The translations under genes and the position numbers were made by a program. A DNA stretch of 64,000 nucleotides, taken from the NCBI GenBank assembly GCA_019058245.1, contig JAHPZJ010000020.1, positions 9,986 to 73,985 of the forward strand, in the 5' to 3' direction. Positions 214-45,832 of this stretch are shown here, piece after piece (position 1 is the stretch's first letter; each line of letters starts with the position of its first letter). This DNA is from Promethearchaeota archaeon. GTDB taxonomy: Archaea > Asgardarchaeota > Lokiarchaeia > Sigyniarchaeales > SOKP01. Under the pieces are notes generated by a model, which was not told the DNA's origin, did no database searches, and saw only the letters and a list, made by a program, of their open reading frames with translations.

Positions 214-810
214 TCACACAACTACACAGGAAACATGTCGTTTTTTCAACATTAGATTATTCAAATTTTTAAAAACCTCTAAAACATTATAATTCTTTAA
301 AGCTGAAGTTCTTTTAAAACCATTAAGATTTTTGTTTTTTAAAAACTCGAATATTAATTTATTACTCACGATTTCTGAATCTGGAATACTATTAATTAAA
401 TCACTTTTACTTCCGACAAGAATTATAGGAATATTCTTATTAACTGCATTTTCAATTATTATATTATACCAAAACTCTAATTGATTAAATGAGCTATAAT
501 TAACTGAATCAAATACTAATAATGCTCCATTAGCTCCCTCTATAAATTTAGGGATTAATGGTGCAAATCTTTCTTGACCCCCAAAATCAAAGATTGAATT
601 TACAATATAATTTTCTTTTAATGTATCTGGATTTTTTTTTAGATTAACTTTTAGATAAACTGAATGAAAATTAATTCCGATTGTAGGTGAGGTATCAAAA
701 TTAAATGAATTGAAACAATAGCGATTAAATAAACTAGTTTTACCAACTGAACTAGCTCCACATATTACTGTTTTAAAGTTATATAATACGTCTCCCTGAA
801 TATAGCTCAT
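214..810 (-). CDS. Rab/Ras-like small GTPase with a C-terminal CaaX-like box (CVVV)
   Basis: G1 GASSVGKTS, G2 PTIG, G3 DFGGQE, G4 SKSD (variant of NKxD) and G5 TSALK are present. The 198-aa protein ends in HVSCVVV-stop. Confidence 0.85.
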   Translation of the reverse strand: MSYIQGDVLYNFKTVICGASSVGKTSLFNRYCFNSFNFDTSPTIGINFHSVYLKVNLKKNPDTLKENYIVNSIFDFGGQERFAPLIPKFIEGANGALLVFDSVNYSSFNQLEFWYNIIIENAVNKNIPIILVGSKSDLINSIPDSEIVSNKLIFEFLKNKNLNGFKRTSALKNYNVLEVFKNLNNLMLKKRHVSCVVV

Positions 811-9739: not shown

Positions 9740-10039
9740 ATGGATTTTTTTCATAGCAATCTTAAAGAAACACTTGATGCGATAAATAAATTAATAGATA
9801 ATAATATCAACATTGTAAATACTAAAAGAATTAGACGGTGTAACAACATTAAATCTTCAAACCGATCTAAGATCAATTTCATTTGGAGAGCTTTAAAATA
9901 TCTTGAAGAAGAAGGAATATTAACCCCAAATGGAATAACAAATCCTAAAACCTATAAAATAACGACTAATGAAAAGATTGATATTAATAAAATACTTTCC
10001 CAAATTGAGAAGAATAAAAAAAAATCTATCTTAGTTTAG
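9740..10039 (+). CDS. Hypothetical small basic protein, possibly winged-helix
   Basis: This is a 99-aa ORF with no recognisable motif. Its 3' end overlaps the convergent 908-aa gene by 9 nt. Confidence 0.4.
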   Translation: MDFFHSNLKETLDAINKLIDNNINIVNTKRIRRCNNIKSSNRSKINFIWRALKYLEEEGILTPNGITNPKTYKITTNEKIDINKILSQIEKNKKKSILV

Positions 10040-12757
10040 ATGCAAATCTGTTAAATATTCATCTAATTTGATTTTAGATTCCTTATCATCTGGATTATTA
10101 ACCAGCCGTTTTTGATAAAATATTATGTTTGGATATTTCAATTCCATTTTATTAAAAATTTTTATCCATTTATTAAAGTTATCTAAAAGTACCAGAATTT
10201 CGGGATCTTCTTCTAAAGATAAAATTTCTTCTTTTTTTTCTTTTGAAAGGCCTGTTTTATATTTCTTTATACTAATTCCTTGATCTCTTAGCAGTCTATT
10301 ATTAGTTTTTCTAATAAATGCTTCTAAACTATTTCTCCAATTCACATGTTTTTCAATTATTTTATCTAAAATATCTTGAATGATTTTTATCTCTTGTGGA
10401 AAAATTGTCTCTTGTTCCTTAGTAAGGATTTTTTTTATTATCTTAAATTCAGTTTCAAGCTTCTGAATATAATTGTTAACCATCTTTTCAAATTCAAACA
10501 GAACAGTATTATAATCTTTAGCAAAGATCACTTCATCACTAGAAAAAGTCAGAGTTTCTTCATCAAATGAACCTTTTAACCTTTTATTTTTTACCAATTC
10601 ATCAAATATTTCCTTCATAAATTCAATCTCAGCTTGATTTAATTCCTTTCCATAAAACAAATCATGAAAAGAAAAGAGAAGACTATTTTCCAGCATCAAA
10701 TTACGAATTCCACGTTCGGTATAAAAAAGAATTTCTCCATCAATTTCATTAAAAATTCCCTTTAATTTTCCGTCTGCTATTAAGTCTTGAATTAATCCCT
10801 CAACTAAATTTGAAGTGATATCATAGTTTCCTAATGATATATATTCATTAGATTTGGATTTATCAATCAACATATATTTTATATCATTCTTAGCCTCTTC
10901 TATTTTCTGTGGATGAAAAATTAATTGATCCACCTTTTTGAAATAAGAAATACCTAATCCATCAATAAATTTCAGAAAACCTTCTGGTTCCATTCCAGTT
11001 TTTTCAATATAATCATTAATGTTAATTTTATCTTTTAGTTTTATTTCTGCCCCGATTGATTGTAAGTTTTCATCAATTTTAGTTAAAATATGTTTTTTAT
11101 CAATATTTAGTTCCATTGATATTTTGTTAATTTGCTTTATTTTTTTCTCTTCATCAGAAATCGTTGAGAGCTCATTAATTTTATCATTAATATATTTAGA
11201 ATAGTAAAAAATCTCTTTCTTATTATTCCAAATACCACTTCTATAATCGACTAATTGATCAAATACGTCTAAAAGTAAAAGTTCTCCAATATTTAACTTT
11301 TCTGATATTGTGGAAATGTCAAAATAACCAATAATTTTTGAATTTTGGACTTCATTTTTTATTTTTTGAGATCCTAGATTGGTTAACCATTGTGTACCTT
11401 TACGAAAATTTGATAAATATTCTCTTGGTAAATTTTTTATTATTCTTATGAAATCTTCATCATTTAAAATTTGACGATATGACTTTAAATCTACAATACT
11501 TTCCTTAGCTGCTTCTAAATTAATTTGATTTTGAATATTTTTTAATGAAATGATTGTTTCTTGATCTACACATCTTAGGAATACATCCTTCATAGATTTT
11601 GAGATATTTTTAATTATTTTATTAATGGATTCTTGAGGTAGGAAGTTGAATTTGCCTAAATTGATAGAACCATTTAGTTGTAATTCTTCCATAAATTGTG
11701 AATTAAGGTAGCTATATGAATAAAAGAATCCAATATTAGAATAATATCCATTAATGATTTTTAATTGGATTAAAGTTTTTATAAATAATTTTAACTCTGA
11801 ATCATTCTCAATAACTTGAGAAAATGTAGAATATATTTTTTCATCCGATATTTTCTTATCTCGTTCAAAAAAAGTTTTTAATTTGTCTTTTTCTAGTTCA
11901 TATACATAAGTTGCCTTTTCTCTTGTTATTATATAAAAATATACTTTTTTTTCCTTTATAGGAGATTTAGAAATTTTTTTAACATATTCTTTAATACTTA
12001 TCCCTAATTCCTTTGAGATTGATGTAAAATTATGTTTTTTCATCAAAAAGTAGTTATTTAATAACTTTTTTATGTCCTTGGTTTCATGGTTTTCTAAATC
12101 GATATCCTTATATAATGGAAAAAACTTTTTCAACAGTTCAATTAATTTTATATAAATTTTTGATGTTTTTTTGTCTTCAAATGAAGTAATTAAGGATTCG
12201 GAAATGAACCTAAAATTGTATAATTGATCAAATTCTAAATCATTACAAAAATCAAGAAAATTTAACAATGAAAGGATATTTTCATATTTACTTTCTGTTA
12301 GTAGACTTTTTAGAATAATATCTAAATTAGAGTTTACCAGATTTGGATTTTTTTTAAATAACTCCTGTAAAAAGAAATGTACATTATTTCTAGTATCTTC
12401 AGATTTATCTTGAAGAAATTTAATAAATTCATGAAAATAATTATCAAAATATTTTGAATTAGCAAGCATCGCAAATCCAATAACGATGATTGAATTAATT
12501 TTTAACTTTTTCTTTTCTGAATGAAGAAAAACCTCAATTTTTTGTATTAATGATTCAGGAATAATTTCTATTTTATTTTCTGCTAGAATTGACATAATAT
12601 ATGTAATTGGGATTGAATAATTATTATCCTCCAATAAGGTTTCTAACTCATTCATTACTTTTGAGATTTTTTGGACTTTATTTTTGTTTAAATGTTTATT
12701 CAGTTTTTCTACTTTATCAAGGATCAAATTATCCTTAAAATCTTGAAGATTAAACAT
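10031..12757 (-). CDS. Large (908 aa) protein: HEAT/ARM-like N-terminus followed by an array of winged-helix (PCI/UFL1-like) modules
   Basis: The ORF is long and uninterrupted. The N-terminal ~180 aa form a helical repeat. Recurring modules have the form ISxxLxI...L..L...G.I.G..D......F, for example LIQDLIADGKLKGIFNEIDGEILFYT and IFDELVKNKRLKGSFDEETLTFSS. Confidence 0.7.
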   Translation of the reverse strand: MFNLQDFKDNLILDKVEKLNKHLNKNKVQKISKVMNELETLLEDNNYSIPITYIMSILAENKIEIIPESLIQKIEVFLHSEKKKLKINSIIVIGFAMLANSKYFDNYFHEFIKFLQDKSEDTRNNVHFFLQELFKKNPNLVNSNLDIILKSLLTESKYENILSLLNFLDFCNDLEFDQLYNFRFISESLITSFEDKKTSKIYIKLIELLKKFFPLYKDIDLENHETKDIKKLLNNYFLMKKHNFTSISKELGISIKEYVKKISKSPIKEKKVYFYIITREKATYVYELEKDKLKTFFERDKKISDEKIYSTFSQVIENDSELKLFIKTLIQLKIINGYYSNIGFFYSYSYLNSQFMEELQLNGSINLGKFNFLPQESINKIIKNISKSMKDVFLRCVDQETIISLKNIQNQINLEAAKESIVDLKSYRQILNDEDFIRIIKNLPREYLSNFRKGTQWLTNLGSQKIKNEVQNSKIIGYFDISTISEKLNIGELLLLDVFDQLVDYRSGIWNNKKEIFYYSKYINDKINELSTISDEEKKIKQINKISMELNIDKKHILTKIDENLQSIGAEIKLKDKININDYIEKTGMEPEGFLKFIDGLGISYFKKVDQLIFHPQKIEEAKNDIKYMLIDKSKSNEYISLGNYDITSNLVEGLIQDLIADGKLKGIFNEIDGEILFYTERGIRNLMLENSLLFSFHDLFYGKELNQAEIEFMKEIFDELVKNKRLKGSFDEETLTFSSDEVIFAKDYNTVLFEFEKMVNNYIQKLETEFKIIKKILTKEQETIFPQEIKIIQDILDKIIEKHVNWRNSLEAFIRKTNNRLLRDQGISIKKYKTGLSKEKKEEILSLEEDPEILVLLDNFNKWIKIFNKMELKYPNIIFYQKRLVNNPDDKESKIKLDEYLTDLHLN

Positions 12758-15565: not shown

Positions 15566-15946
15566 ATGAAAAATCAACCCAATATTGAAGGATTAAAATC
15601 GAAAATAAAATTTGGAATAAAATTTTGGCTAGAATTTGAAGGTAAGAGTATATTGGGTTCAGGTTGGGCAGAGTTACTAAAGAATATTGAAAAGAATGAA
15701 GAAGGTTCATTAACTCAGGCAGCAAAGGAGTGTAGTTATTCCTATAAATATGCATGGAATATTTTAAAGAGAATTGAGAGAAGAACTGGTAATCCAATAG
15801 TAATAACTGGTAAAGGAGGTAGTGGGGGAGGTGGCTGGGTAAAATTAAATGAATGGGGGAAGTTTCTATTAAATGTCTATCAACAATATCTAGAAGAAAT
15901 CAAAAAAATTGAAAAATCACTTTCAGAAAAGATGATAAACATCTAA
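15566..15946 (+). CDS. ModE N-terminal-like winged-helix DNA-binding protein
   Basis: The sequence GSLTQAAKECSYSYKYAWNILKRIERRTGNPIVITGKGGSGGGG matches the HTH plus glycine-loop pattern of the ModE/LysR-like HTH_1 domain. Confidence 0.6.
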   Translation: MKNQPNIEGLKSKIKFGIKFWLEFEGKSILGSGWAELLKNIEKNEEGSLTQAAKECSYSYKYAWNILKRIERRTGNPIVITGKGGSGGGGWVKLNEWGKFLLNVYQQYLEEIKKIEKSLSEKMINI

Positions 15947-16565: not shown

Positions 16566-18089
16566 ATGGCACTACCCCTACCTGGAACCCCAATTATCAT
16601 TGATATTGGCTCAGCATATGTAAAAATTGGATTTTCTGGAGAACCAAGTCCTAGATATGTTTTTCCTTGCATCACTGGGACAGAAAAATATAAATCTATA
16701 ATGGTTGATGTGAGTGCTCGAAGCATCTACGTAGGTAATGACGTATCTCGAATGCGTGGTGTACTTAAAATAAACCATCCATTAAGTCGTGGTGAAATTA
16801 TGGACTGGGATAGTTATTATGAGATCTTAAATTATATTTTCTATTCATTGCTTAGAATTGATAACCTTTCCCAGTATCCTGTATTCTATTGTGAACCTCC
16901 TTTTATGCTTAAAGATACTAAAGAGTATATAGGGCGTGTATTTTTTGAAACTCATCGAGTTGGGAGTTTGGTGATGATGTCAACACCATTACTTTCTTTA
17001 TTTAGCGTTGGATTGACGACAGGATTAGTTATTGAAAGTGGAGAAGGAATGACTTGGATAGTCCCAATAATTAATGGGCAAATTGTTCAGCATGCGGTTC
17101 AGAAAATTCCAATTGCAGGAATTGATGTGAATCAAAACTTGAAAGGTCTCTTAATGAGAGAAGGAGTAAGTATTTCTTCTAGTGCTGCAGATGAAATAAT
17201 CCAAGAGATAAAAGAAAAAAACTGTTATTTTGCCTTGGATCCAAATATACCTCCCAAAGCGGGAGAAATGTTTAGTGTTCCTATGCCTGACGGAACAAAA
17301 ATAAATGTTCCTACTTATATTCTTTATCAAGCTCCAGAAGTTTTATTTAATCCAGGTATGTTAGGTTCTGGAAATATAATGAATATCCCTCAAGCTGTTA
17401 TAGCGAGTTTGCGTGTAATTGATAATAATTATTGGCATGAATTGCTTTCACATATAGTTTTTGCCGGAGGAAATCTATCTTACAGTGGTTTTCAAGAACG
17501 GTTCGAGTCTGAATTAGATCCTCTCTTACCTCAATTAGGTCCAATTCCTAAACCAGTAGCCCCGCTCTCTGCAGTTAAGAGTGAACTAATTAAACTTCAA
17601 AGTGTTGAAATCTCTAAAAAGAATGAAGACACATGTCCAAAATGTGGTGCATTTATTAATCTTGATGATGGGAAAAAAGTATGTCCCTCCTGTGGTGAAT
17701 TATTAATTTTACCAGAAATAAAAATAGGAACATTAAATACAAATGGACAAAAAAAAGTAGAAGAAGGTAAATGTCCATATTGCAAAAAAGAACTTCCTGA
17801 TATGGATTCGCTTTTTTGTCCATATTGTGGAAAACCAATTGAATCTCTAAAACAAACGATATTACCAGAAAAAGAAATAGAGAAAACAGCAGCACAAGAA
17901 TTTTCAGAATTTATGGAATCTGCTAATAAAGTACTAAAATTTTTTGTTCCTGACAATCTTCAGTATGCTGCTTTTAATGGTGCAGCAATACTAGGAAGTT
18001 TACCTTCATTCCAGCAACTTTTTATAACACATGACCAGTTTATAACGAATCCTAATCTTTTATATCGAGATATAAGTGAAATCCTTTAG
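16566..18089 (+). CDS. Actin-family protein (actin/Arp-like) with a ~130-aa insertion containing two CxxC...CxxC zinc ribbons
   Basis: It aligns by eye with eukaryotic actin over the whole fold: IIIDIGSAYVKIGFSGEPSPRYVFPCITG, YVGNDV..RG, TTGLVIESGEGMTWIVPIINGQ, IKEKNCYFALDP, FAGGNLSYSGFQERF and AAFNGAAILGSLPSFQQLFITHDQF. The insertion reads CPKCGAFINLDDGKKVCPSCG ... CPYCKKELPDMDSLFCPYCG. Confidence 0.85.
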   Translation: MALPLPGTPIIIDIGSAYVKIGFSGEPSPRYVFPCITGTEKYKSIMVDVSARSIYVGNDVSRMRGVLKINHPLSRGEIMDWDSYYEILNYIFYSLLRIDNLSQYPVFYCEPPFMLKDTKEYIGRVFFETHRVGSLVMMSTPLLSLFSVGLTTGLVIESGEGMTWIVPIINGQIVQHAVQKIPIAGIDVNQNLKGLLMREGVSISSSAADEIIQEIKEKNCYFALDPNIPPKAGEMFSVPMPDGTKINVPTYILYQAPEVLFNPGMLGSGNIMNIPQAVIASLRVIDNNYWHELLSHIVFAGGNLSYSGFQERFESELDPLLPQLGPIPKPVAPLSAVKSELIKLQSVEISKKNEDTCPKCGAFINLDDGKKVCPSCGELLILPEIKIGTLNTNGQKKVEEGKCPYCKKELPDMDSLFCPYCGKPIESLKQTILPEKEIEKTAAQEFSEFMESANKVLKFFVPDNLQYAAFNGAAILGSLPSFQQLFITHDQFITNPNLLYRDISEIL

Positions 18090-18246
18090 TTAAACAACAA
18101 AAAACTCTTAGTCTTTAAATAATTTCAAGACTAAATTATAAAAAATTGAAAATATACTTTATTTAGATTGAACATATAGTTAATTTTTAATTTCAAGATA
18201 GATTTAAACAATTAAAATTTAACATTTCAGATTTAGGTATCATTAA

Positions 18247-19344
18247 ATGAAGTATAAATATCGGAATATAATTACCGTATTTTTTTTATTATTAATAACT
18301 TTGAATTTAGTTCCGAGTGTACTAGGAAAGACACGTGGATCTTATTTAGTTAGTTTTATTAAAAATAATGAAATTGAAGGTATTGGCTTTACTAACGCAA
18401 ATGATGGTAATGCTTTGATTTCTTATGAAGCAACAGCACATGCGTTAGAGATATTAGATGATTATGGAACTAATCCCCATAAAATTGACACTCTCCAAGA
18501 TAATCTTGAAGATAAAATAAGAGATATGTTTAGTATAAATCAAGTTAATTTATTTGATTTATATTGTTTAATGAAATCATTAGATATCTTAGAACATGAA
18601 ATTGATTTTAATTTAAGAAGTGAGATTTATAAGTATTTAAATGAAACTGAACAAATTGAGGGTGGATTTTCTTTCTCAAACAGCTCTAGCATAGCAAGTT
18701 TAACTTCTACATATTATGTTATTCAACTATATTCATTAATCAATGAACCTATTGATAATCTTACAGTTCATAAAAATTGGATTCTATCTTGTTATAATAC
18801 AGATGGAGGATATGGAGGAAATCAAAGCCTATCTTCTAATTTGCTCAATACTTATTTTGTAGTTTCACTATTAGATGAATTTTGGAACATTACTAATCTA
18901 GTTGACATCAACCAAACAATATCCTATATAAAATCGTTTTATGTTAATAATTCAGCAGATATTGATAATTACGGAGGATATTTACCAGATGATTCAACAC
19001 AATATGCGATGTTAAGTAGTTCGTATTTTTGTGTGAAATCACTGTCTTTAATAGATCCTGGCGAAATAAATAAGGATTCAACAATTTCATGGTTATTAAC
19101 ACTTCAAAATTTTGAAGACGGGGGATTTTCAGATAATACTGAAGGTGATAATCAAAAGAAATCATCAGTAATAGCTTCATATTTTGCTTTTAAAATCCTA
19201 AAAATACTGAATCCTTCCCTCTCTAGTTTAAGTAATGATATATGGATGGTGGAGTTTAATTATTGGATTTTAGTTATAATTCTCATATGTATAGTAGTTG
19301 TTATTGGTATAATAGTATTCATCTGGCGAAAAAAAAGATTATAA
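18247..19344 (+). CDS. Prenyltransferase / squalene-oxidase (alpha-alpha toroid) repeat protein with signal peptide and C-terminal membrane anchor
   Basis: The N-terminus is hydrophobic (ITVFFLLLITLNLVPSVLG). Four repeats are present: EGGFSFSNSS, DGGYGGNQS, YGGYLPDDS and DGGFSDNTEG. The C-terminal TM ends WILVIILICIVVVIGIIVFIWRKKRL. Confidence 0.7.
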   Translation: MKYKYRNIITVFFLLLITLNLVPSVLGKTRGSYLVSFIKNNEIEGIGFTNANDGNALISYEATAHALEILDDYGTNPHKIDTLQDNLEDKIRDMFSINQVNLFDLYCLMKSLDILEHEIDFNLRSEIYKYLNETEQIEGGFSFSNSSSIASLTSTYYVIQLYSLINEPIDNLTVHKNWILSCYNTDGGYGGNQSLSSNLLNTYFVVSLLDEFWNITNLVDINQTISYIKSFYVNNSADIDNYGGYLPDDSTQYAMLSSSYFCVKSLSLIDPGEINKDSTISWLLTLQNFEDGGFSDNTEGDNQKKSSVIASYFAFKILKILNPSLSSLSNDIWMVEFNYWILVIILICIVVVIGIIVFIWRKKRL

Positions 19345-20494: not shown

Positions 20495-20950
20495 ATGGCA
20501 ATTTTAGAAATTGGTATTAATCTCGGCATGAGAAATTTAGTTGAAATTAAATATTATTCATCTTCGGATAATGTCTTGGATCCAAATTTGCGTGCTGGTT
20601 TCCTAACAGCTCTAGAATCCTTCACATCAGAGGTATTCGGCGATGATATAAATGTAATCAGCCTTGCGAGTTTTAAATTAGTTTGTTATTGCGAAATGAT
20701 TACTTTACCTAGTGATGATTTAAATAATAAACAACCCTTATTATCATATGCCATAATTGAAAAAGGAACAGATGCCTCAGTAGTAAAACAACAGTTGAGT
20801 CAAATTATCTCATACTTTCTCAATCGTTATCCCTTAAATGATATTTTTTCAAAAAAACCTAAATATTTTCGACAATTTGAGAGTAGAATTAATGAGATTT
20901 TAGGAGATTTAAGATTAAAAACTGAGGATAGATTTCGTTCTTTATTTTAA
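20495..20950 (+). CDS. Longin/roadblock-like (SNARE-like fold) small protein
   Basis: It is 151 aa with a beta-beta-alpha-beta-beta-beta-alpha pattern, and the helix reads LRAGFLTALESFTSEVFG. It aligns with the ORF at 54181. The fold assignment rests on pattern only. Confidence 0.5.
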   Translation: MAILEIGINLGMRNLVEIKYYSSSDNVLDPNLRAGFLTALESFTSEVFGDDINVISLASFKLVCYCEMITLPSDDLNNKQPLLSYAIIEKGTDASVVKQQLSQIISYFLNRYPLNDIFSKKPKYFRQFESRINEILGDLRLKTEDRFRSLF

Positions 20951-20972: not shown

Positions 20973-22166
20973 TTGAGTTCTAATTTACCACCTTTAGCTA
21001 AAGCGAAATATCAAGAGTATTTAGATGCTGGAGCTTTAGAAGATAGGATAAAAAAGTTAGAGGAATTTCTATCCTTAGTTCCTAAGCATAAAGCAACAGA
21101 AAAGATTGTTGCCCTTAATAAATCACGCTTAGCTAAGATGAAGCGTGAACTAGAAGATCGTAAATTAAAACAAAAAAGTACTCAGAAAATTGTTAGTCCT
21201 TTTTCAATAAAAAAAGAAGGAATACAAGTAATATTAATTAGTAGCTTCCAAACACCAGGGGCAGGAAAAACTTCAATCCTAAACTACCTAACAGGCGCAG
21301 CAAAAGAGAACATTGGAAAATTTACAGCACTACCAGAAATTGGAATATATAAATATCAGAAGATCCGGTTTCAAATAGTAGAAATGCCCGCTATTATGGA
21401 AGGCGCTTCTGATGGTGTAGGAAATGGAAAGGAAATACTTTCACAACTTAGAGCAGCAGATTTATTATGTTTATGCATAGATTTATCAAGAAATATAGAA
21501 GACCAGATGAATTTATTATTGTCTGAATTATCAAAGGCTGATATTCGAATAAATGAATCACCGCCCCCTTTAACAATTGAAAAAACGGGTGCCAACAAGG
21601 TTCAGGTTCTTTATCTCACTAAAGAAGCTAAAAATGTTGAAGGACTAGGAGATTTTACAGATCAAATAAAAGAATTAGTTTATGAAAATGGGATTCGTAA
21701 TGGGATTGTAAAAGTTTATGGTCAGATTACTCTTGATGATATTGTGGATGCATTAACTCCTTCCGTTGTATATAAAAAAGTAATATTGTTAGGAACTAAA
21801 GGAGATCTATCTCATACTCAAGATATTTTTGAAAGCTTAAAAGAAAACTATAAAGATATGTTTCCTATAATTATTGGTACAAGCTATATGAAAGAAAAAC
21901 TTCCTAAAGATTTTGGTGAAATCATATTAAAATTCTTAAATAAAATCAGGATATACACTATGAGTAGTGGAATTATTGCTCAACAACCATTAATAATGGA
22001 TGAGAATTCTACTATTAAAGATGTAGCTTTAAAAGTTCATAGAAGTTTTTTTGAATCATTCGAACATGCAATAGTTATACGGGAAGGAGAACGACAGAAA
22101 CGTAAGAAAGTTGGTCTAGATTATATTCTAAAAGATCTTGATGTAGTAGAAATACATATAACCTAA
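20973..22166 (+). CDS. DRG/Rbg-like Obg-family GTPase with C-terminal TGS domain; divergent G motifs
   Basis: It has an N-terminal helical region (ALNKSRLAKMKRELE), a P-loop PGAGKTS, G4 TKGD and a C-terminal TGS-like IRIYTMSS...VHRSFFESFEHAIV...LKDLDVVEI. G3 reads VEMPAI instead of DxPG. The start codon is TTG. Confidence 0.75.
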   Translation: MSSNLPPLAKAKYQEYLDAGALEDRIKKLEEFLSLVPKHKATEKIVALNKSRLAKMKRELEDRKLKQKSTQKIVSPFSIKKEGIQVILISSFQTPGAGKTSILNYLTGAAKENIGKFTALPEIGIYKYQKIRFQIVEMPAIMEGASDGVGNGKEILSQLRAADLLCLCIDLSRNIEDQMNLLLSELSKADIRINESPPPLTIEKTGANKVQVLYLTKEAKNVEGLGDFTDQIKELVYENGIRNGIVKVYGQITLDDIVDALTPSVVYKKVILLGTKGDLSHTQDIFESLKENYKDMFPIIIGTSYMKEKLPKDFGEIILKFLNKIRIYTMSSGIIAQQPLIMDENSTIKDVALKVHRSFFESFEHAIVIREGERQKRKKVGLDYILKDLDVVEIHIT

Positions 22167-28741: not shown

Positions 28742-29497
28742 ATTCTTCTATGGGTAATATTATTTAGTATTTTGGGCAGTATTGGAGCGATAGTTTTGGC
28801 TATTGGTTTTATAAGTTTAAATAAAAATTCTCAAAAATCACTAGTTACATGTTTGGTAGCATATGCAACAGGGACTTTACTAGCAGCCGCATCTCTAGGA
28901 ATGATCCCTACGGCAATCTCAAAAGCAGGAGAAGCAATACAATTAATTATGGCATTTTTTTTAGGAGCACTTATGTTTTTCTTTATTCTTGAGAAATTGA
29001 TAATTTGGCGGCATTGTCACGATAAAGATTGTATTGTAACTGGTGAAGCTACAGGACCAATTATTCTTATTGGAGATGCATTTCATAATTTTGTAGATGG
29101 TATTGTTATTGCCGCCTCGTTTTTAACAAGTTTTACTTTTGGGATAGCTATTAGTCTTTCTGTTATTGCGCATGAAGTTCCTCAGGAAATAGGAGATTTA
29201 GCAATTCTCATTGATAAGAATTATTCAAAAAAGAAAGCATTCTTATATAATACTTTTTCAGGATTAAGCACTATACCAGCAGCAATAATAGGATATTTCA
29301 TATTAGATATAATTTCTATGGCGATTCCTTATGTTCTTATAATTTCAGCCGCAAGTTTTATTTACATTGCATTATCCGATTTAACACCAGAACTTCATCA
29401 AAAATTAGGATTAAAGCATAGCGTAAGGCAGTTGATTTTAATTTTTGCAGGAATAATTACTATGATATTGATATTTATGCTAAAATCCATACTATAG
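28742..29497 (+). CDS. ZIP-family divalent metal transporter (ZupT-like), paralog 1; the start codon is uncertain (ATT aligned with the paralog ATG, first canonical start TTG at 28772)
   Basis: HNFVDGIVIA and HEVPQEIGD motifs are present. The frame is open from the TGA at 28733. ILLWVILFSILGSIGA aligns with MLIWIILFSILGSVGA of the downstream paralog. Confidence 0.8.
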   Translation: MLLWVILFSILGSIGAIVLAIGFISLNKNSQKSLVTCLVAYATGTLLAAASLGMIPTAISKAGEAIQLIMAFFLGALMFFFILEKLIIWRHCHDKDCIVTGEATGPIILIGDAFHNFVDGIVIAASFLTSFTFGIAISLSVIAHEVPQEIGDLAILIDKNYSKKKAFLYNTFSGLSTIPAAIIGYFILDIISMAIPYVLIISAASFIYIALSDLTPELHQKLGLKHSVRQLILIFAGIITMILIFMLKSIL

Positions 29498-29519
29498 GGA
29501 AAAGGGGAGATAATTCAAG

Positions 29520-30275
29520 ATGTTGATATGGATTATTTTATTTAGTATATTAGGAAGTGTTGGTGCCCTAACTATTGCTGGAGTTTTTGTATTTTTGGGA
29601 GTTAATTATCAAAAAACACTTATCCCTATCCTTATTGCTTTTGCAACGGGGGTATTATTAGCAGTTGCTTTTTTAGGTTTAATTCCAGAAGCGATTGAAG
29701 AAGTTGGAGAACCTCATTTAATTATGCCTTTCATATTAGGAGGAATCCTGTTTTTCTTTTTAATGGAAAAGATGGTGATATGGAGGAATTGTCGTGATAA
29801 AACATGTAAAGTGCACTCTCATGCTTCTGGAGCAATTGTTCTTGTGGGTGATTCTTTCCATAACTTTACAGATGGGATTGTAATAGCTGCATCATTTTTA
29901 GCTGGACTAAATCTTGGAGTTGTTGCGGGACTGACGATTATAATTCATGAAATATCTCAGGAAACTGCAGATTTTGGTATACTTCTGCATTCAGGATATT
30001 CAAAGAAAAAAGCTTTTTTGTACAATACTATCTCAAGTTTAACAACTATCCCGGCTTCTATTATCTCATTTTTCATATTAGATTCTCTTGAATTTGTTAT
30101 TCCATTTTTATTGGCAATTTCTGCTGCTAGTTTCATTTATATAGCTCTTTCAGATTTAACTCCTGATCTCCATAAAAATTCAGATTTTAAATATATTATC
30201 CGTCAATTAGTAACAATTCTAATAGGAATACTATTGATGACCCTGATATTATCGTTAGGAGGGCATCATAATTAA
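29520..30275 (+). CDS. ZIP-family divalent metal transporter (ZupT-like), paralog 2
   Basis: HNFTDGIVIA and HEISQETADFG motifs are present. It is collinear with paralog 1 along its full length. Confidence 0.85.
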   Translation: MLIWIILFSILGSVGALTIAGVFVFLGVNYQKTLIPILIAFATGVLLAVAFLGLIPEAIEEVGEPHLIMPFILGGILFFFLMEKMVIWRNCRDKTCKVHSHASGAIVLVGDSFHNFTDGIVIAASFLAGLNLGVVAGLTIIIHEISQETADFGILLHSGYSKKKAFLYNTISSLTTIPASIISFFILDSLEFVIPFLLAISAASFIYIALSDLTPDLHKNSDFKYIIRQLVTILIGILLMTLILSLGGHHN

Positions 30276-30294
30276 AATTTAAAAGGATTATCGC

Positions 30295-30723
30295 ATGTTA
30301 GATATCGATTATATAGTATTAAAAAAGTTATATAAATATGGTCCTCTGAAAGTGGGAGAATTAGCAAAGAACCTTAAATCTCCTCATTCAACTATTGGTA
30401 GTTGTATAAAACGATTAGAAAAAAAAGGATATGTTGTATATAACAGATATAAATCAGTGTATTTATCGGAGAAAGGGAAAGATCTCACCATTGAGTTAAA
30501 GCGTCATTCACATCTTCTTGAATTGCTATTAGTTAATGAGCTTGAAATAGAAGCAGAGAAAGCTCATAATGAGTGCGAAAAATTCAATTTACTTTTTTCA
30601 TGTGAAATAATAAACAAAATTTGTGAAAGATATGGCCATCCAAAAAAATGTCCCTGTGGAGAAGAGATACTAAACTCTATAGACTGTTTTTGTGAAGAAA
30701 AAAATAATAGTTCACTTAATTAA
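30295..30723 (+). CDS. DtxR/MntR-family metal-dependent transcriptional regulator with a Cys-rich tail
   Basis: The wHTH reads LKVGELAKNLKSPHSTIGSCIKRLEKKGYV, and LSEKGKDL...RHSHLLELLL is typical of DtxR. The C-terminus reads HPKKCPCGEEILNSIDCFCEE. Confidence 0.75.
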   Translation: MLDIDYIVLKKLYKYGPLKVGELAKNLKSPHSTIGSCIKRLEKKGYVVYNRYKSVYLSEKGKDLTIELKRHSHLLELLLVNELEIEAEKAHNECEKFNLLFSCEIINKICERYGHPKKCPCGEEILNSIDCFCEEKNNSSLN

Positions 30724-33840: not shown

Positions 33841-34854
33841 ATAAAGTTTAATATTAAACTAGTTGTTTGTGGTGAAGGAAAAGTTGGGAAAACTTCAATA
33901 ATAGATGCTTTTTTAGGTAATGAAGTTCCTGAACAATACTTACCAACAATCGGTAATGTCACTAATAAAAAAGAATATTTATTAAAGGAGAATGGTAAAT
34001 CACTTAAAATTTTGATATCGATATGGGATTTAGGTGGTCAAAGATCTTTCAATCCATTTAATCCTTCAATATATACTAATACAGATATTGCTATTTTAGT
34101 TTTTGATTTAACTAGACCAGAAGAGACTTTAAAAAATTTAAAGAGAGAATTCTTAAAAAATTTAAATCAAAATTCTGAAGATTTCTTATTACTTTATGTT
34201 GGAAATAAAATAGATCTACTTGAAAAAGATAATTCTTTAAAAATGGCAATTCAAGAGTTCTTTACTCAAAATGATCATCTAATGCTAACATCCGCCAAAA
34301 CAGGAGAAAATGTTGCTGATTGTTTTGAATTGTTATTATCAACTTATTTAAGAAAAGAGGAAATTTTAAATCCAGATCTAATTCTTGATAATCCCTCTAG
34401 TGTGTTTCATAATCTCATTGGCAAGGATGAGGAGAAATTAAAAAATAAACTTATTAAAATAACTGAGATTGAGTCAGTCCTAGAAAAAATAAAACCGATA
34501 CCAAAAACAGTAAAAGAAGAGAAAGTTATTGAGGAAGAAGCGAAGGAAGATAAAGAAGTAAAATATTATGAATTTCTTAGAAAAGAATTAGATCAAAATG
34601 AATTACAAAGATTAGAAGTACTAGATCGTTTTTTAATAAGTTTATCAGAATTAGATGATACAATAAAACATATTAAAAAATCAAAAACCACATCCGTGAT
34701 TGGACTAATTGATGATTTAAAGAAAATTTTAATAAATGCTAAGAAAGAATTTAAAAAGAATGCTAATTTAATGATAAAATTAAATTCAGAAGAATTTGAA
34801 TTAATAAAGGTTATCTCCAAGTTTGATGAAGAACAATCTTTACTAAACCAATAA
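33841..34854 (+). CDS. Rab/Ras-like small GTPase with a ~170-aa coiled-coil C-terminal extension; the 5' end is uncertain (no canonical start upstream of the P-loop)
   Basis: My hand translation of the frame upstream of the track ORF (34012) gives IKFNIKLVVCGEGKVGKTSIIDAFLGNEVPEQYLPTIGNV. After that come WDLGGQ, GNKIDL and TSAKTGENV. An in-frame TAA lies at 33820-33822. Confidence 0.8.
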   Translation: MKFNIKLVVCGEGKVGKTSIIDAFLGNEVPEQYLPTIGNVTNKKEYLLKENGKSLKILISIWDLGGQRSFNPFNPSIYTNTDIAILVFDLTRPEETLKNLKREFLKNLNQNSEDFLLLYVGNKIDLLEKDNSLKMAIQEFFTQNDHLMLTSAKTGENVADCFELLLSTYLRKEEILNPDLILDNPSSVFHNLIGKDEEKLKNKLIKITEIESVLEKIKPIPKTVKEEKVIEEEAKEDKEVKYYEFLRKELDQNELQRLEVLDRFLISLSELDDTIKHIKKSKTTSVIGLIDDLKKILINAKKEFKKNANLMIKLNSEEFELIKVISKFDEEQSLLNQ

Positions 34855-43929: not shown

Positions 43930-45570
43930 TTATTTAAGTCTAGCATAAATTTCTCTATTATCATTTAATTTCGTTAATAACTTTTTTGCTTCCTTATTTG
44001 ATAGCGAAAGAGAAATATCACTATTACGGCTTAAAGACCCTGTAAAAATCAGATGATTATCTGCAAAAATTTCAATATTTTGGCTTGCATATTTCGGATT
44101 AGCTTTAATGATGATTTTTTGTTTTTTTACTTCAACATCCAAATGAATTTTTTTTTCCTTTTTCATTCCACTAGAAGGTACCACTTTTCCCCTTGAAGGG
44201 TATTTAGAACTGATAGGATTCACCACAACATCATTTCCAAAATTATAAATCTCGAATTCTAAACGATCACTTTCAAAATCTCTAACTTCTACAACAGGTC
44301 TAGCTAAATCCTTATCTCTAAAACCATGAGGTACCTTAACAGTCATTCTTAATATTAAAACACTCGAAATATCTCCACCTTGGATAAAAATTATCGTATC
44401 AATAATAGATGAGAGCATTCCAAGCTCGATTCGACCAATAAATCTTTGAATGGCATCAATAGCAGATGATGAATGCACCACACCAACCATTCCAACACCA
44501 GATAATCGAAAATCAGCATAAACTTCAAAATCTCTTGTTGTTCTTACTTCGTCAAAAATGGTAAAATCTGGTCTTACTAGTAAAAGTATATCCGCTGAAT
44601 TTTCGATATTACCCTCAAGTTTTGTATATTGAGTGATTTCGGGTCTAACTTGTAAGTCTCTCACACTTTCAAGTGTTTTAACCACTTTATCATGTTCTAA
44701 ATAGAAATTAGCTAATGCGGCAGAAAATGTTGATTTACCTGCACCTGGAGAACCAGATACTAATATTCCTTCAGCTTTTTCAATTCTTTTTCTGAGCCGA
44801 CTATCAATAGAATAATCATCTAAGGTTAAACTAACTAAAGGTCTAACAGCAGTAATTTCAACATCACTAGAGAAGGGAGGACGTGTTATAACGATTCGAA
44901 ATTCCCTCATTTGAGCAACAACAGCTCCTTCTTTTTCAATTTCAATAAAAGAATGTTTATCTTCTCTTGTAACTTCTACAATCTCCATTGCTATATCTTC
45001 AATCAATTCATTTGAGATTAAGTCTTCTTTAATTTTGTGTAATCTCCAATTTCCTGGAGATCCCTTTTTAGCATAAGGAGGATTATTTCGCTTGAGATGA
45101 ACACTCATAGTCTCATCATCAAAATATTCAAATAATTTTAGAGAAAGCATTTCTTCTTCTTTTACTGCTCTTTTTTCCCAAGCAAATAATACTTCTAAAC
45201 CCTCAAATACACCAACATCTCCTTGTATTCTGTCTGCTGTTATTAGAATCGCATTATTCTTACGAGCTTCCTCTCTAATCAATGCATCAAGTTCACCACC
45301 TTGAGCTAGCTTTATTTCTTCTCTCGTTGGGCGTCTTCCTACAATAAGTAATTCAACTTTTTTATCATCATGAAGTTTTCGCAATTCTTTTAATACATTT
45401 AGTCCAAAAAATCCAATTTCTTTTTGCACATTTGTTCGATATTCAACTTCAGCAATAACGATATTACATATGATAATTTCTGGTTTTTCTCCCAATTCTC
45501 CATCTTCGATTAAATTAAGGATTTGACCATTAAAAATAATCGATGTATCACATAAAAATTTGTCTTGCAT
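43930..45570 (-). CDS. PIN domain + PilT-like ATPase + KH-like domain protein (archaeal COG1855-type)
   Basis: It has an N-terminal PIN-like acidic pattern (CDTS...EVEY...TADR), Walker A GSPGAGKST and Walker B ILLVRPDFTIFDE. The C-terminus is basic and beta-rich. Confidence 0.8.
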   Translation of the reverse strand: MQDKFLCDTSIIFNGQILNLIEDGELGEKPEIIICNIVIAEVEYRTNVQKEIGFFGLNVLKELRKLHDDKKVELLIVGRRPTREEIKLAQGGELDALIREEARKNNAILITADRIQGDVGVFEGLEVLFAWEKRAVKEEEMLSLKLFEYFDDETMSVHLKRNNPPYAKKGSPGNWRLHKIKEDLISNELIEDIAMEIVEVTREDKHSFIEIEKEGAVVAQMREFRIVITRPPFSSDVEITAVRPLVSLTLDDYSIDSRLRKRIEKAEGILVSGSPGAGKSTFSAALANFYLEHDKVVKTLESVRDLQVRPEITQYTKLEGNIENSADILLLVRPDFTIFDEVRTTRDFEVYADFRLSGVGMVGVVHSSSAIDAIQRFIGRIELGMLSSIIDTIIFIQGGDISSVLILRMTVKVPHGFRDKDLARPVVEVRDFESDRLEFEIYNFGNDVVVNPISSKYPSRGKVVPSSGMKKEKKIHLDVEVKKQKIIIKANPKYASQNIEIFADNHLIFTGSLSRNSDISLSLSNKEAKKLLTKLNDNREIYARLK

Positions 45571-45832
45571 GATGTCGTTTATTACTTTTTGATATATATA
45601 ATAATTATTTGTATAAAGCTTCTATTTGTTAAGGATATATACAATAATGAAGCTTAATATTTATTATTGGAGTGTATCCAGATGTCTTTTCTTTTCTAAA
45701 TAAAATTTATAAGAAAAGTAATTTAAATTAAATGATAACCAGTTATATTTATCTGTTTATTAGATTACAAAAAATAAGAGCTTTAAATATTCTAAAATTG
45801 AAGATTACAATAATATTTTCGTGAATTTAAAT

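What the first reader, a model, noticed from the sequence alone, without database searches (positions are those of the whole stretch)
16566..18089. Actin-fold protein carrying a double zinc-ribbon insertion
The 507-aa product aligns by eye with eukaryotic actin across all subdomains, at roughly one-third identity. Shared blocks include DIGSxxVKxGFxG, YVG...RG, TTGxVxxSGxGxTxxVPI, IKEKxCYxALD and the C-terminal GGSILxSLxxFQQ-type motif.

About 130 residues (nt ~17530-17940) are inserted between the FAGGNLSYSGFQERFESEL block and that C-terminal block. The insertion contains two CxxC-x(11-14)-CxxC zinc ribbons (nt 17634-17831).

Without the insertion the protein is about the size of actin. I do not recognise a metal-binding module grafted into an actin or Arp as a described architecture. 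It could tether filaments to nucleic acid, membrane or a partner.
Basis: partly seen in the sequence, partly recalled or inferred. Interest (0 to 1): 0.7.

Follow-up and report, generated by a model that had tools for sequence, protein, structure and literature searches.

The report
Asgard actin paralogue with zinc-ribbon insert
This is a real, widely conserved Asgard-archaeal actin-related protein with a zinc-ribbon module inserted into one surface loop; it always sits next to a gene for a membrane-anchored surface protein, so it may link the archaeal cytoskeleton to the cell envelope.

Summary
Window 16566-18089 (+) encodes a 507-aa protein. Its core is a complete actin fold (Pfam Actin 218 bits; TM-score about 0.9 to actin; 31-34% identity).

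About 133 residues (aa 324-456) are inserted in the loop equivalent to actin 325-327. The insert contains two C4 zinc ribbons.

It is not a chimera:
- Contigs from two independent studies span both junctions.
- All 86 orthologous loci keep the frame and all eight cysteines.
- The insert is under purifying selection (dN/dS 0.17; core 0.06).

The ribbon-bearing proteins form one clade (100/100 bootstraps on core-only columns). Almost all source names are Asgard. The clade has double-ribbon and single-ribbon subclades, which suggests a single ancient insertion.

Nucleotide-binding residues are kept, but hydrolysis residues are replaced family-wide (Q137T, H161W, D154E). The pointed-end elements (D-loop VMV tip, residues 61-65) are nearly invariant.

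In every clade the next gene downstream is a single-pass surface protein with a prenyltransferase-like toroid ectodomain.

My inference is that this is an ATP-binding, hydrolysis-poor ARP whose ribbon module docks a partner, probably at the membrane. I found no description in the searchable literature. I rate it a new variant of a known kind, interest about 0.6.

The parts
16566..18089 (+). Complete CDS of the zinc-ribbon actin-related protein (ZR-ARP), 507 aa plus stop
   Evidence: Pfam Actin 218 bits; over 120 homologous clusters at 60-99% identity, all about 505 aa
16566..17534 (+). Actin core, N-terminal part (aa 1-323): subdomains 1, 2, 4 and most of 3. Includes phosphate-1 loop D13-G15-S16-K20, D-loop aa 40-54, phosphate-2 loop E157-S-G159-x-G161, W164 (in place of H161), T140 (in place of Q137), adenosine motif G301-G302-N303..Y306, and helix 309-324
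   Evidence: pLDDT mostly above 90
17535..17627 (+). Insert linker 1 (aa 324-354): conserved LPQLGxIPKP motif plus a predicted helix 334-348. Net basic; as constrained as the core (dN/dS 0.07)
17628..17699 (+). Zinc ribbon 1 (aa 355-378): DTCPxCG...CPxCG, with C357, C360, C373, C376 invariant. Net acidic
   Evidence: pLDDT 74-82; dN/dS 0.11
17700..17768 (+). Variable inter-ribbon linker (aa 379-401). Begins with the conserved LPEI(K) motif (P383, E384 invariant); the rest is low-confidence and variable in length
   Evidence: dN/dS 0.33
17769..17837 (+). Zinc ribbon 2 (aa 402-424): CPxC...S-x-FCPYCG, with C403, C406, C418, C421 invariant
   Evidence: pLDDT about 80; dN/dS 0.16
17838..17933 (+). 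Insert linker 2 (aa 425-456): acidic. Contains the amphipathic helix 442-453 (AQEFSEFMESA) with E445 nearly invariant and F446 invariant
   Evidence: dN/dS 0.22
17934..18086 (+). Actin core, C-terminal part (aa 457-507): strand KFFV (equivalent to actin 328-331), Q466 in place of K336, and the subdomain-1 helices with GAAILGSLPSFQQ
18247..19344 (+). Invariant downstream neighbour: a 365-aa single-pass surface protein. N-terminal signal or anchor, prenyltransferase-beta-like alpha/alpha-toroid ectodomain with 7 NxS/T sequons, C-terminal TM helix, and an RKKRL tail
   Evidence: Pfam Prenyltrans 71 bits. Topology conserved in 10 clade representatives. Best PDB matches are farnesyl/geranylgeranyl-transferase beta subunits, E about 2e-5. 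Adjacent on the same strand in 83/84 near loci by tblastn, with the remaining eligible locus L088 (a deep-clade locus) showing it by Pfam; in 7/7 deep-clade loci and 6/6 metagenome loci
15566..15946 (+). Small HTH_1-type winged-helix protein (126 aa). It recurs immediately upstream of the ARP in several deep clades and may be a regulator; membership of the system is uncertain

Best explanation
The gene encodes a member of a conserved clade of actin-related proteins (ZR-ARP); nearly every source name attached to its members is Asgard.

Shown:
- It has a complete actin fold of actin size.
- A single module of about 133 aa is inserted in the subdomain-3 loop between helix 308-320 and strand 328-331 (actin numbering).
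- The module consists of two C4 zinc ribbons on two linkers of about 30 residues each.
- The clade arose once.
- The insert is under purifying selection.

Inferred from residues:
- The protein still binds ATP. D11, G13, S14, K18, G156, G158, K213, E214, G301, G302 and Y306 equivalents are kept.
- It hydrolyses ATP poorly or not at all, because Q137, H161 and D154 are replaced by T, W and E in essentially all members. This points to a structural or adaptor ARP rather than a dynamic polymer.
- Its pointed-end face is nearly invariant (D-loop with the actin-like V-M-V tip; residues 61-65). It therefore probably docks into the barbed-end cleft of another actin-fold subunit, either lokiactin or itself.

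Inferred from position and context:
- In F-actin the host loop lies at the filament periphery, next to K326/K328. The ribbon module should therefore project outward as a docking handle.
- The module is not basic, which fits a protein-binding role.
- The ARP gene is always followed by a gene for a single-pass surface protein, so the handle most likely connects the actin system to the membrane or envelope.
For: Identity:
- Pfam Actin 218 bits, split by the insert.
- The best PDB match is an Asgard (Hodarchaeales strain HC1) actin at 4.6e-67, followed by eukaryotic actins.
- AF2 model pLDDT 83.9 with the core above 90.
- Foldseek TM-score 0.87-0.92 to actins.

Reality and conservation:
- 86/86 loci are intact with four CxxC motifs, and 8/8 cysteines are invariant in 72 distinct sequences.
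- At least 80 species-level genomes carry a full-length orthologue, and 135 encode a relative.
- Independent contigs span both junctions.
- dN/dS is 0.17 for the insert against 0.06 for the core.

Single origin:
- Ribbon-bearing proteins split from insert-free actins in 100/100 bootstraps on core-only columns.
- Both single- and double-ribbon forms exist.

Insert character:
- Net charge is about +1.7, and ZR1 is acidic.
- The only PDB similarity is weak, to Nop10/RpoM-type ribbons.

Gene pair.

Precedent: in Haloferax volcanii CdpC, two zinc ribbons mediate FtsZ1 binding and membrane association, and zinc-site mutants lose function (bioRxiv 10.64898/2026.07.16.738847, read).
Against: - No experiment or co-folding supports any partner.
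- The partner's cytoplasmic parts are only about 5-9 basic residues at each end, a small target for a direct contact.
- Co-transcription is not shown. There is a 157-bp spacer with an 8-bp hairpin after the stop codon.
- No RNA data were found.
- Much of the gene-pair count comes from loci that share overall synteny. The independent evidence is about 13 deep-clade loci.
- The position of the insert relative to the filament rests on established actin structures, not on coordinates of this model, which were not available. The linkers are low-confidence.
- Loss of hydrolysis is inferred from substitutions only.
Confidence: 0.4

Rival explanations
1. It forms its own cytoskeletal filament. The ZR-ARP homopolymerises into an actin-like filament. 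The zinc ribbons decorate the filament surface and mediate bundling or lateral association, with no dedicated membrane role.
For: - The core is the size of actin with almost no other indels.
- The D-loop hydrophobic tip and most target-cleft residues are retained.
- The host loop is peripheral in F-actin, and the roughly 30-residue linkers could keep the module clear of the polymer interface.
Against: - The hydrolysis residues Q137, H161 and D154 are all replaced.
- The barbed-side longitudinal contact segment 283-294 and the lateral plug are less conserved than the core mean: 0.67 and 0.77 against 0.83.
- The insertion sits directly after residues 322-325, which make a longitudinal contact in F-actin (established knowledge).
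Confidence: 0.2
2. It is a filament-end factor. The ZR-ARP binds the barbed end of lokiactin filaments through its pointed-end face, and the insert blocks or gates further subunit addition. It would act as a cap, anchor or nucleation seed, in the manner of Arp2/3 or Arp1/Arp11.
For: - Pointed-end elements are the most conserved surface: residues 61-65 score 1.00 and the D-loop 0.89.
- The barbed-side subdomain-3 segments are less conserved, and the insert lies on that side.
- Hydrolysis-impairing substitutions fit a stable cap.
- In Lokiarchaeum ossiferum, the ARP-like homologues are transcribed at several-fold lower levels than lokiactin (PMC9834061), which fits a sub-stoichiometric role. Whether any of those homologues belongs to this family is not established.
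Against: - The long flexible linkers may not block the barbed end.
- The conservation differences are modest and were not corrected for burial.
- There are no partner subunits comparable to ARPC1-5 in the neighbourhood.
Confidence: 0.2
3. It is a nucleic-acid tether. The zinc ribbons bind DNA or RNA, so the protein links actin-fold assemblies to the chromosome or to RNPs. This would be analogous to nuclear Arps in chromatin remodellers, or to ParM with a built-in adaptor.
For: - Many archaeal zinc ribbons are found in nucleic-acid machinery.
- The weak best PDB similarities are to Nop10 and RNA polymerase subunit M ribbons (E 0.01-0.04).
- IMG labels one homologue 'RPABC4/Spt4'.
- A small HTH protein gene is often upstream.
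Against: - The insert is near neutral, ZR1 is acidic (-2.6) and linker 2 is acidic.
- No neighbouring gene for DNA segregation or chromatin is conserved.
- The only invariant neighbour is a surface protein.
Confidence: 0.12
4. It is an artefact: an assembly chimera, or a decaying gene in which an unrelated zinc-ribbon ORF was fused into an actin gene.
For: None found.
Against: - The frame is uninterrupted in 86/86 loci from many projects.
- Contigs from two separate studies span 16806-18300 and 17325-18208 with one substitution each and no gaps or joints.
- The insert has dN/dS of 0.17.
- The ribbon-bearing proteins are monophyletic.
Confidence: 0.01

Closest known systems
Lokiactin / eukaryotic actin (Pfam PF00022)
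   Same: - Same fold, same size of core, and same nucleotide-binding motifs.
- D-loop of the same length, with the V-M-V tip.
- The best sequence matches are an Asgard actin (PDB 9wc4, from strain HC1) and eukaryotic actins.
   Different: - Only 31-34% identical. An insert-free, canonical-looking 376-aa actin-family protein from a metagenome (P0333, source unnamed) is 70% identical to the Branchiostoma actin-like reference used.
- Carries the 133-aa zinc-ribbon insert.
- The catalytic residues Q137, H161 and D154 are replaced, and K336 is changed to Q.
Eukaryotic actin-related proteins with lineage-specific inserts (Arp3, and Arp4/5/8 of chromatin remodellers)
   Same: - The concept is the same: an actin fold that has lost classical dynamics and gained surface inserts that create new binding functions.
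- Published trees place several Asgard actin homologues among the ARPs (PMC9834061, PMC8850707).
   Different: - No known eukaryotic Arp insert is a zinc ribbon, as far as I know and as far as the searches show.
- Orthology to any named Arp was not established here.
- From memory only, Arp3 and Arp2 carry an insert in the same helix-strand loop (alphaK/beta15). I could not verify this with the tools.
Haloferax volcanii CdpC (dual zinc-ribbon membrane anchor of FtsZ1)
   Same: - It is an archaeal cytoskeleton-associated protein in which two C4/C3H zinc ribbons are required for function.
- One ribbon domain binds the cytoskeletal polymer and the other is in the domain that associates with the membrane.
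- The authors report distant multi-ribbon homologues in Lokiarchaeia (bioRxiv 10.64898/2026.07.16.738847).
   Different: - CdpC is a separate adaptor protein for a tubulin homologue. Here the ribbons are built into the cytoskeletal (actin-fold) protein itself.
- Sequence relationship was not tested.
Bacterial actin-homologue operons with bitopic envelope partners (mreB-mreC-mreD) and FtsA
   Same: - The genomic logic is the same: a cytoplasmic actin-fold gene directly followed by a gene for a single-pass membrane protein whose bulk lies outside the cell.
- FtsA is an actin fold with a rearranged or inserted subdomain that serves as a membrane tether.
- Both points are established knowledge and were not tested here.
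   Different: - The ZR-ARP is not MreB or FtsA: PF06723 scores 14 bits against a cut-off of 27.
- The partner is an alpha/alpha-toroid protein unrelated to MreC.
- The resemblance is by analogy only.

Membership tests
Actin family (Pfam PF00022; actin/ARP fold) | Sequence match above the curated threshold across all four subdomains | tested here: met
   218 bits against a cut-off of 27; matches aa 9-323 plus the C-terminal segment. PDB actins score E 1e-58 to 5e-67.
Actin family (Pfam PF00022; actin/ARP fold) | Actin three-dimensional fold | tested here: met
   AF2 pLDDT 83.9 with the core above 90. Foldseek TM-score 0.87-0.92 normalised to actin chains, E about 1e-34.
Actin family (Pfam PF00022; actin/ARP fold) | Nucleotide-binding motifs (phosphate 1, phosphate 2, adenosine) | tested here: met
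   Equivalents of D11, G13, S14, K18, S155, G156, G158, K213, E214, G301, G302 and Y306 are retained and 94-100% conserved in the family. Actual ATP binding cannot be tested here.
Lokiactin / bona fide actin orthologue | High identity to eukaryotic actin (about 58% is reported for lokiactin, PMC12050087) and no large insert | tested here: not met
   31-34% identity to actins, and a 133-aa insert.
Lokiactin / bona fide actin orthologue | Catalytic residues Q137 and H161 for polymerisation-stimulated ATP hydrolysis | tested here: not met
   Q137 is T (92%), H161 is W (100%) and D154 is E (100%) across the family.
Eukaryotic Arp subfamilies (Arp1/centractin, Arp2, Arp3, Arp4-10) | Phylogenetic grouping with a named Arp subfamily | tested here: inconclusive
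   - All top 60 PDB sequence hits are actins, none is an Arp.
- My tree had no labelled Arps.
- The IMG labels 'centractin' and 'actin-related protein' are automatic.
- Published trees place Asgard paralogues among ARPs, but without reference to this family.
Double zinc ribbon (Pfam PF12773 DZR; PF13248 Zn_ribbon_3) | Two CxxC...CxxC units matching the models above the cut-off | tested here: met
   On the isolated insert, DZR scores 38.5 bits (cut-off 27.3) and Zn_ribbon_3 scores 51.6 bits (cut-off 27). All eight cysteines are invariant in 72 distinct sequences. The AF2 model shows beta-hairpin ribbons at pLDDT 74-82.
Double zinc ribbon (Pfam PF12773 DZR; PF13248 Zn_ribbon_3) | Binding of two zinc ions | not testable with these tools
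   Needs metal analysis of the purified protein.
MreB / crenactin / other prokaryotic actins | Match to the family model above the curated cut-off | tested here: not met
   MreB_Mbl 14.1 bits against 27. Crenactin NF053560 17 bits against 630, and syringactin 22 bits against 300. The NCBI label 'rod shape-determining protein' on some homologues is therefore not supported.
Protein prenyltransferase beta subunit (for the downstream partner) | Alpha/alpha-toroid repeats | tested here: met
   PF00432 scores 71 bits over three stretches. PDB FTase/GGTase beta subunits match at E 2e-5 to 1e-4.
Protein prenyltransferase beta subunit (for the downstream partner) | A cytosolic enzyme paired with an alpha subunit | tested here: not met
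   The partner has a signal or anchor segment, a C-terminal TM helix, 5-12 NxS/T sequons and positive-inside tails, which predict an extracellular domain. No alpha-subunit gene is nearby. It shares the fold repeats but is not shown to be an enzyme.

The most novel reading that the evidence does not exclude
The ZR-ARP and its invariant single-pass surface-protein neighbour form a dedicated cytoskeleton-to-envelope coupling module in Asgard archaea. An actin-fold subunit joins or caps lokiactin filaments and, through its built-in zinc-ribbon handle, anchors them to a transmembrane protein. That protein would be one of the 'complex surface structures' seen on Lokiarchaeum cells. This would be a prokaryotic counterpart of eukaryotic actin-membrane linkage, and a route to how the protrusions are shaped.
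Probability: 0.2. Interest if true: 0.85.

Novelty: new variant of a known kind. Interest (0 to 1): 0.6.

Why it matters
[quoted passage not shown] It is not known how the filaments are regulated or how they connect to the membrane.

Only lokiactin, profilins and gelsolins have been studied. The ARP-like paralogues are uncharacterised.

This finding defines one such paralogue family precisely and provides:
- a diagnostic architecture, an actin fold with a zinc-ribbon module in the 325-327 loop;
- evidence for a single ancient origin;
- a signature of lost hydrolysis;
- an invariant genomic partner that is a surface-exposed membrane protein.

Together these give experimentalists a concrete, testable candidate for an actin-membrane adaptor or filament-end factor. 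The organisms concerned can now be cultured and imaged.

It also shows that decorating the actin fold with binding modules, the strategy of the eukaryotic Arps, is used in archaea with a typically archaeal module.

Tried and rejected
- **L. ossiferum primers.** I matched the published qPCR primers for the four L. ossiferum actin homologues against the window. There was no hit within 5 mismatches, so the window is not that strain.
- **L. ossiferum supplements.** The stored tables list only 'Actin' for two orthologue groups and no accession-level data. I could not decide whether the cultured strains carry a ZR-ARP.
- **First AF2 run.** Run on a shallow family-only alignment, it gave pLDDT 53 and was discarded. 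The second run, with distant and insert-free relatives, was usable.
- **RNA evidence.** No RNA runs hold the gene.
- **ESCRT link.** ESCRT genes lie 2-4 kb upstream in two deep-clade loci. They are absent from the window and from other clades, so I rejected this as a general association.
- **Nucleic-acid binding by charge.** The insert is near neutral.
- **Membrane-targeting helix.** I found no basic amphipathic helix in the insert. The only amphipathic helix is acidic.
- **NCBIfam.** It gave nothing above cut-off for the ARP, the partner, or the neighbouring unknown proteins.
- **PDB search with the insert alone.** Only marginal zinc-ribbon hits.
- **Arp3 alphaK/beta15 insert.** The literature check returned nothing, so that comparison remains a recollection.
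- **Metagenome scan.** It returned only 16 loci. Six had enough downstream sequence to score.
- **Model coordinates.** They were not available in the sandbox, so I could not measure where the insert projects.
Full report
**1. The observation**

Window 16566-18089 (+) is an ATG-initiated ORF of 507 codons. The window is AT-rich (26-32% G+C). Two antisense ORFs lie inside the region (17597-17956 and 17656-17895, minus strand); they are the kind expected by chance in such sequence.

Pfam scores the protein as Actin at 218 bits (cut-off 27), in two stretches that leave out aa 324-456. The excluded stretch scores above the curated cut-offs for Zn_ribbon_3 (47-52 bits) and DZR (33-38 bits).

Against all PDB sequences, the best match is the actin of the cultured Hodarchaeales strain HC1 (9wc4, 4.6e-67). 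Eukaryotic actins follow at about 1e-61. The alignment again breaks at 324 and resumes at 457. MreB, crenactin and syringactin models fall far below threshold.

The ribbons are C357-x2-C360-x12-C373-x2-C376 and C403-x2-C406-x11-C418-x2-C421.

**2. It is a real gene, not a chimera**

A search of 5.8 billion proteins returned 300 proteins at E <= 1e-10. The 120 best that are listed are 60-99% identical and nearly all 502-510 aa (three shorter entries are truncated), and every one combines Actin with zinc-ribbon domains.

A scan of one genome per prokaryotic species found relatives in 135 genomes. The best 80 are all essentially full length at 58-89% identity, and nearly all are titled Promethearchaeota or Promethearchaeia.

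In all 86 loci held at that point the frame is uninterrupted with four CxxC motifs. In 72 distinct sequences all eight cysteines are invariant. I re-checked the 11 loci that my motif filter had dropped, to avoid circularity.

Near-identical DNA occurs in runs from several independent studies. A 47-kb contig from one study matches without a difference. Contigs from a second study span 16806-18300 and 17325-18208, each with one substitution and no gaps or joints.

Segment-wise Nei-Gojobori estimates on 149 orthologue pairs:

| Segment | dN/dS |
|---|---|
| Actin core | 0.06 |
| Whole insert | 0.17 |
| First linker | 0.07 |
| Ribbon 1 | 0.11 |
| Ribbon 2 | 0.16 |
| Second linker | 0.22 |
| Inter-ribbon spacer | 0.33 |

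The insert is therefore maintained by selection.

**3. Anatomy**

A first structure prediction on a shallow alignment was poor (pLDDT 53). A second used 91 sequences, including distant and insert-free relatives. It gave pLDDT 83.9 and pTM 0.74, with the actin core mostly above 90. Foldseek aligns that model to actin chains with TM-scores of 0.87-0.92.

Elements of the insert:
- a conserved LPQLGxIPKP motif;
- a low-confidence helix (334-348);
- ribbon 1 (pLDDT 74-82);
- a disordered, variable spacer;
- ribbon 2 (pLDDT about 80);
- a disordered acidic stretch;
- an amphipathic acidic helix (442-453, AQEFSEFMESA), with E445 nearly invariant and F446 invariant.

The chain then re-enters the fold at strand KFFV. 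I numbered positions through a canonical-looking, insert-free actin-family protein (P0333). On that numbering the insertion lies between actin M325 and I327, in the loop that joins helix 308-320 to strand 328-331 of subdomain 3.

From established F-actin structures, residues 322-325 contribute to the longitudinal contact with subdomain 4 of the next subunit. K326 and K328 lie on the outer surface, where tropomyosin binds. The title of entry 9zbp reflects this. The module therefore emerges at the periphery of a would-be filament, on the barbed-end side of subdomain 3, on two linkers of about 30 residues each.

**4. Functional residues**

Nucleotide-binding positions are retained and 94-100% conserved: D11, G13, S14, K18, S155, G156, G158, K213, E214, G301, G302 and Y306.

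The residues that actin uses for hydrolysis are replaced throughout the family:

| Actin residue | ZR-ARP residue | Share of family |
|---|---|---|
| Q137 | T | 92% |
| H161 | W | 100% |
| D154 | E | 100% |
| K336 | Q | 96% |

I infer ATP binding with weak or no hydrolysis. This is typical of structural ARPs rather than of treadmilling polymers.

Within-family conservation by surface element (core mean 0.83):

| Element | Conservation |
|---|---|
| Residues 61-65 (pointed end) | 1.00 |
| Target cleft | 0.90 |
| D-loop (pointed end) | 0.89 |
| Hydrophobic plug | 0.77 |
| Lateral contacts | 0.76 |
| Barbed-side segment 283-294 | 0.67 |

The D-loop has the same length as in actin and keeps the V-M-V tip. 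This pattern suggests that the protein docks by its pointed face into the barbed-end cleft of another actin-fold subunit. The differences are modest and were not corrected for burial.

**5. Evolution**

An exhaustive search of 1.84 billion cluster representatives and a profile search with the distant members showed a wider clade. It contains further double-ribbon forms (509-626 aa, 36-49% identical to the window protein) and single-ribbon forms (about 480-496 aa). Some of the single-ribbon forms are labelled Sigynarchaeota. In all of them the insert is at the same site.

I built a neighbour-joining tree on 368 core-only columns from 117 sequences. It separates all ribbon-bearing proteins from all insert-free actins in 100 of 100 bootstraps. 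The single-ribbon proteins are mostly one clade beside several double-ribbon clades.

The simplest reading is one ancient insertion into an Asgard actin paralogue, followed by a gain or loss of the second ribbon.

MAG labels are unreliable. Names from different Asgard classes appear on proteins that are 80-89% identical, and one contig is titled Nanopelagicaceae. I therefore do not assign classes.

**6. Genomic context**

In the window and its near relatives there is long-range synteny. The order is: HEAT-like 907-aa protein, HAD, 220-aa membrane protein, MBL, small HTH, CBS, ARP, Prenyltrans-domain protein, FolD, 151-aa protein, DRG-type GTPase, helicase.

The informative comparison is with the deep clades, where the surroundings are rearranged. 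There the one gene that stays directly downstream on the same strand is the Prenyltrans-domain protein:
- 7 of 7 loci sampled from different deep clades;
- 6 of 6 metagenome loci with at least 500 bp of downstream sequence;
- 83 of 84 eligible loci by tblastn, with the single miss (L088, itself one of the deep-clade loci above) annotated as Prenyltrans by Pfam.

By tblastn against the window's neighbours in ten deep-clade loci, the small HTH protein is found immediately upstream in five, FolD in four and a CBS protein in four; Pfam additionally annotates a larger CBS-containing protein downstream in L087. The other neighbours recur only in the closest locus.

The partner has the same topology in all ten representatives examined:
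- a basic N-terminus and a hydrophobic signal or anchor segment;
- an alpha/alpha-toroid domain of roughly 310-335 aa with 5-12 N-glycosylation sequons;
- one C-terminal TM helix;
- a basic tail of about 5-9 residues.

Its repeats match prenyltransferase beta subunits only weakly (E about 2e-5). No alpha subunit is nearby, so it shares the fold but is not a demonstrated enzyme.

Its family is also confined to Asgard assemblies. It evolves faster than the ARP (68% against 85% identity on the same contig), as surface proteins do.

Co-transcription is not shown. The 157-bp spacer begins with an 8-bp hairpin (TTAGTCTT at 18108-18115, AAGACTAA at 18127-18134) and is AT-rich. No RNA runs were available.

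**7. Mechanism**

The best-supported account has three layers.

- *Shown:* a conserved actin-fold protein, found almost exclusively in Asgard-labelled assemblies, with a selected zinc-ribbon module in one surface loop.
- *Inferred from residues:* it binds ATP, hydrolyses it poorly, and keeps an actin-like pointed-end docking surface.
- *Inferred from chemistry and context:* the module is a protein-docking handle rather than a nucleic-acid binder. Its net charge is about +1.7, ribbon 1 is acidic, and no basic amphipathic helix is present. It points away from the fold. The gene is always paired with a surface-exposed membrane protein, so the handle most plausibly connects the actin system to the membrane or envelope.

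A recent preprint gives a precedent in archaea. In Haloferax volcanii CdpC the C-terminal zinc ribbon binds FtsZ1, the N-terminal ribbon domain associates with the membrane, and zinc-site mutations abolish function. The authors also report distant multi-ribbon homologues in Lokiarchaeia.

Lokiarchaeum cells have 'complex surface structures' and no S-layer, and their actin filaments run along the periphery and into the protrusions. This makes such a link biologically sensible.

The weak point is that the partner exposes only a few residues to the cytoplasm.

Three rivals are not excluded and partly overlap with this account: an autonomous filament with surface ribbons, a barbed-end cap or nucleator, and a nucleic-acid tether. 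The artefact hypothesis is excluded.

**8. Comparison with what is known, and novelty**

The protein is a member of the actin family; it meets the fold, sequence and motif criteria. It is not a lokiactin, because it fails on identity, on the insert and on the catalytic residues. It is not MreB or crenactin. Orthology to a named eukaryotic Arp is undetermined.

Published work recognises several ARP-like paralogues in Asgard genomes and five 'asgardactin' clades, but says nothing about inserts.

Ten full-text searches with varied wording found no paper describing an actin or ARP with a zinc ribbon. Subscription-only literature was not searchable. Databases carry only automatic labels such as 'zinc ribbon domain-containing protein', 'actin-related protein', 'centractin' and 'rod shape-determining protein'.

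I therefore rate it a new variant of a known kind. It has a clear and testable functional lead, and I score its interest at about 0.6.

Noticed in passing
window 18247-19344 (+); also L001, L003, L005, L087-L093, L096, L097, L099, L100: An Asgard-restricted family of single-pass surface proteins with a prenyltransferase-beta-like alpha/alpha-toroid ectodomain, many N-glycosylation sequons and a short basic tail. It always follows the ZR-ARP gene. Its own function is unknown; it may be one of the surface structures seen on Lokiarchaeum cells.
   Followed up: partly
window 15566-15946 (+); L090 5547-5942, L092 4541-4927, L093 4465-4794, L096 and L097: A small (109-131 aa) HTH_1-type winged-helix protein lies immediately upstream of the ARP, or of ARP plus CBS, in several otherwise rearranged clades. 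It may be a dedicated regulator.
   Followed up: partly
window 20495-20950 (+) and 20973-22166 (+): A 151-aa protein with no family match is followed by a DRG/Obg-type GTPase (MMR_HSR1 + TGS). The pair is conserved downstream in the near clade (74/78 and 71/75 loci) but not in deep clades.
   Followed up: partly
window 10031-12757 (-): A 907-aa protein has no Pfam hit here, but its orthologue in L005 hits Cnd1 (condensin HEAT repeats). It is conserved upstream in the near clade.
   Followed up: no
window 28772-30723 (+): Two tandem ZIP-family zinc transporter genes are followed by an iron-dependent-repressor/MarR-type metal regulator, about 10 kb from the zinc-ribbon ARP. This is probably coincidental.
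   Followed up: no
window 214-810 (-) and 34012-34854 (+): Ras/Arf-family small GTPase genes, typical Asgard eukaryotic-signature proteins. The second matches only the C-terminal two-thirds of the Ras model from the listed start.
   Followed up: no
window 45821-48304 (+) and 43930-45570 (-): An 827-aa SIR2-like plus TPR protein (an architecture that resembles defence proteins) lies beside a PIN-domain plus secretion-ATPase-like protein.
   Followed up: no
window 17597-17956 (-) and 17656-17895 (-): Two antisense ORFs (119 and 79 aa) lie entirely inside the insert-coding region. Cysteine and motif conservation follows the plus-strand frame, so these are most likely chance ORFs in AT-rich DNA.
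   Followed up: partly
window 18108-18134 (+): An 8-bp perfect inverted repeat (TTAGTCTT ... AAGACTAA, 11-nt loop) starts 19 nt after the ARP stop codon. It could act as a transcript-end or processing hairpin between the ARP and its partner gene.
   Followed up: no
L093 6806-7907: In this deep-clade locus the partner gene is called as two ORFs (176 and 181 aa). This could be a frameshift, an assembly error or a genuine split.
   Followed up: no
L087 2024-4248 and L089 1581-2937: ESCRT genes lie 2-4 kb upstream of the ZR-ARP in two deep clades: Vps4 plus ESCRT-II in L087, and two Snf7 genes in L089. This is not seen in the window or in other clades.
   Followed up: yes
L088 8819-9682 and L089 9196-10035: In the single-ribbon clade, the FolD gene that follows the partner elsewhere is replaced by an MTD gene (methylene-tetrahydromethanopterin dehydrogenase) on the opposite strand. 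A one-carbon-metabolism gene occupies the same place in both arrangements.
   Followed up: no
L007, L011, L015, L041, L068, L076, L077 (record titles): The taxonomic labels of source MAGs are inconsistent. Titles naming Odin-, Hod-, Hermod- and Thorarchaeota appear on orthologues only 58-89% identical to the window protein (for example 89%, 82% and 81% for L007, L011 and L015), and one contig is titled Nanopelagicaceae bacterium. These are probably loose labels or mis-binned contigs.
   Followed up: no
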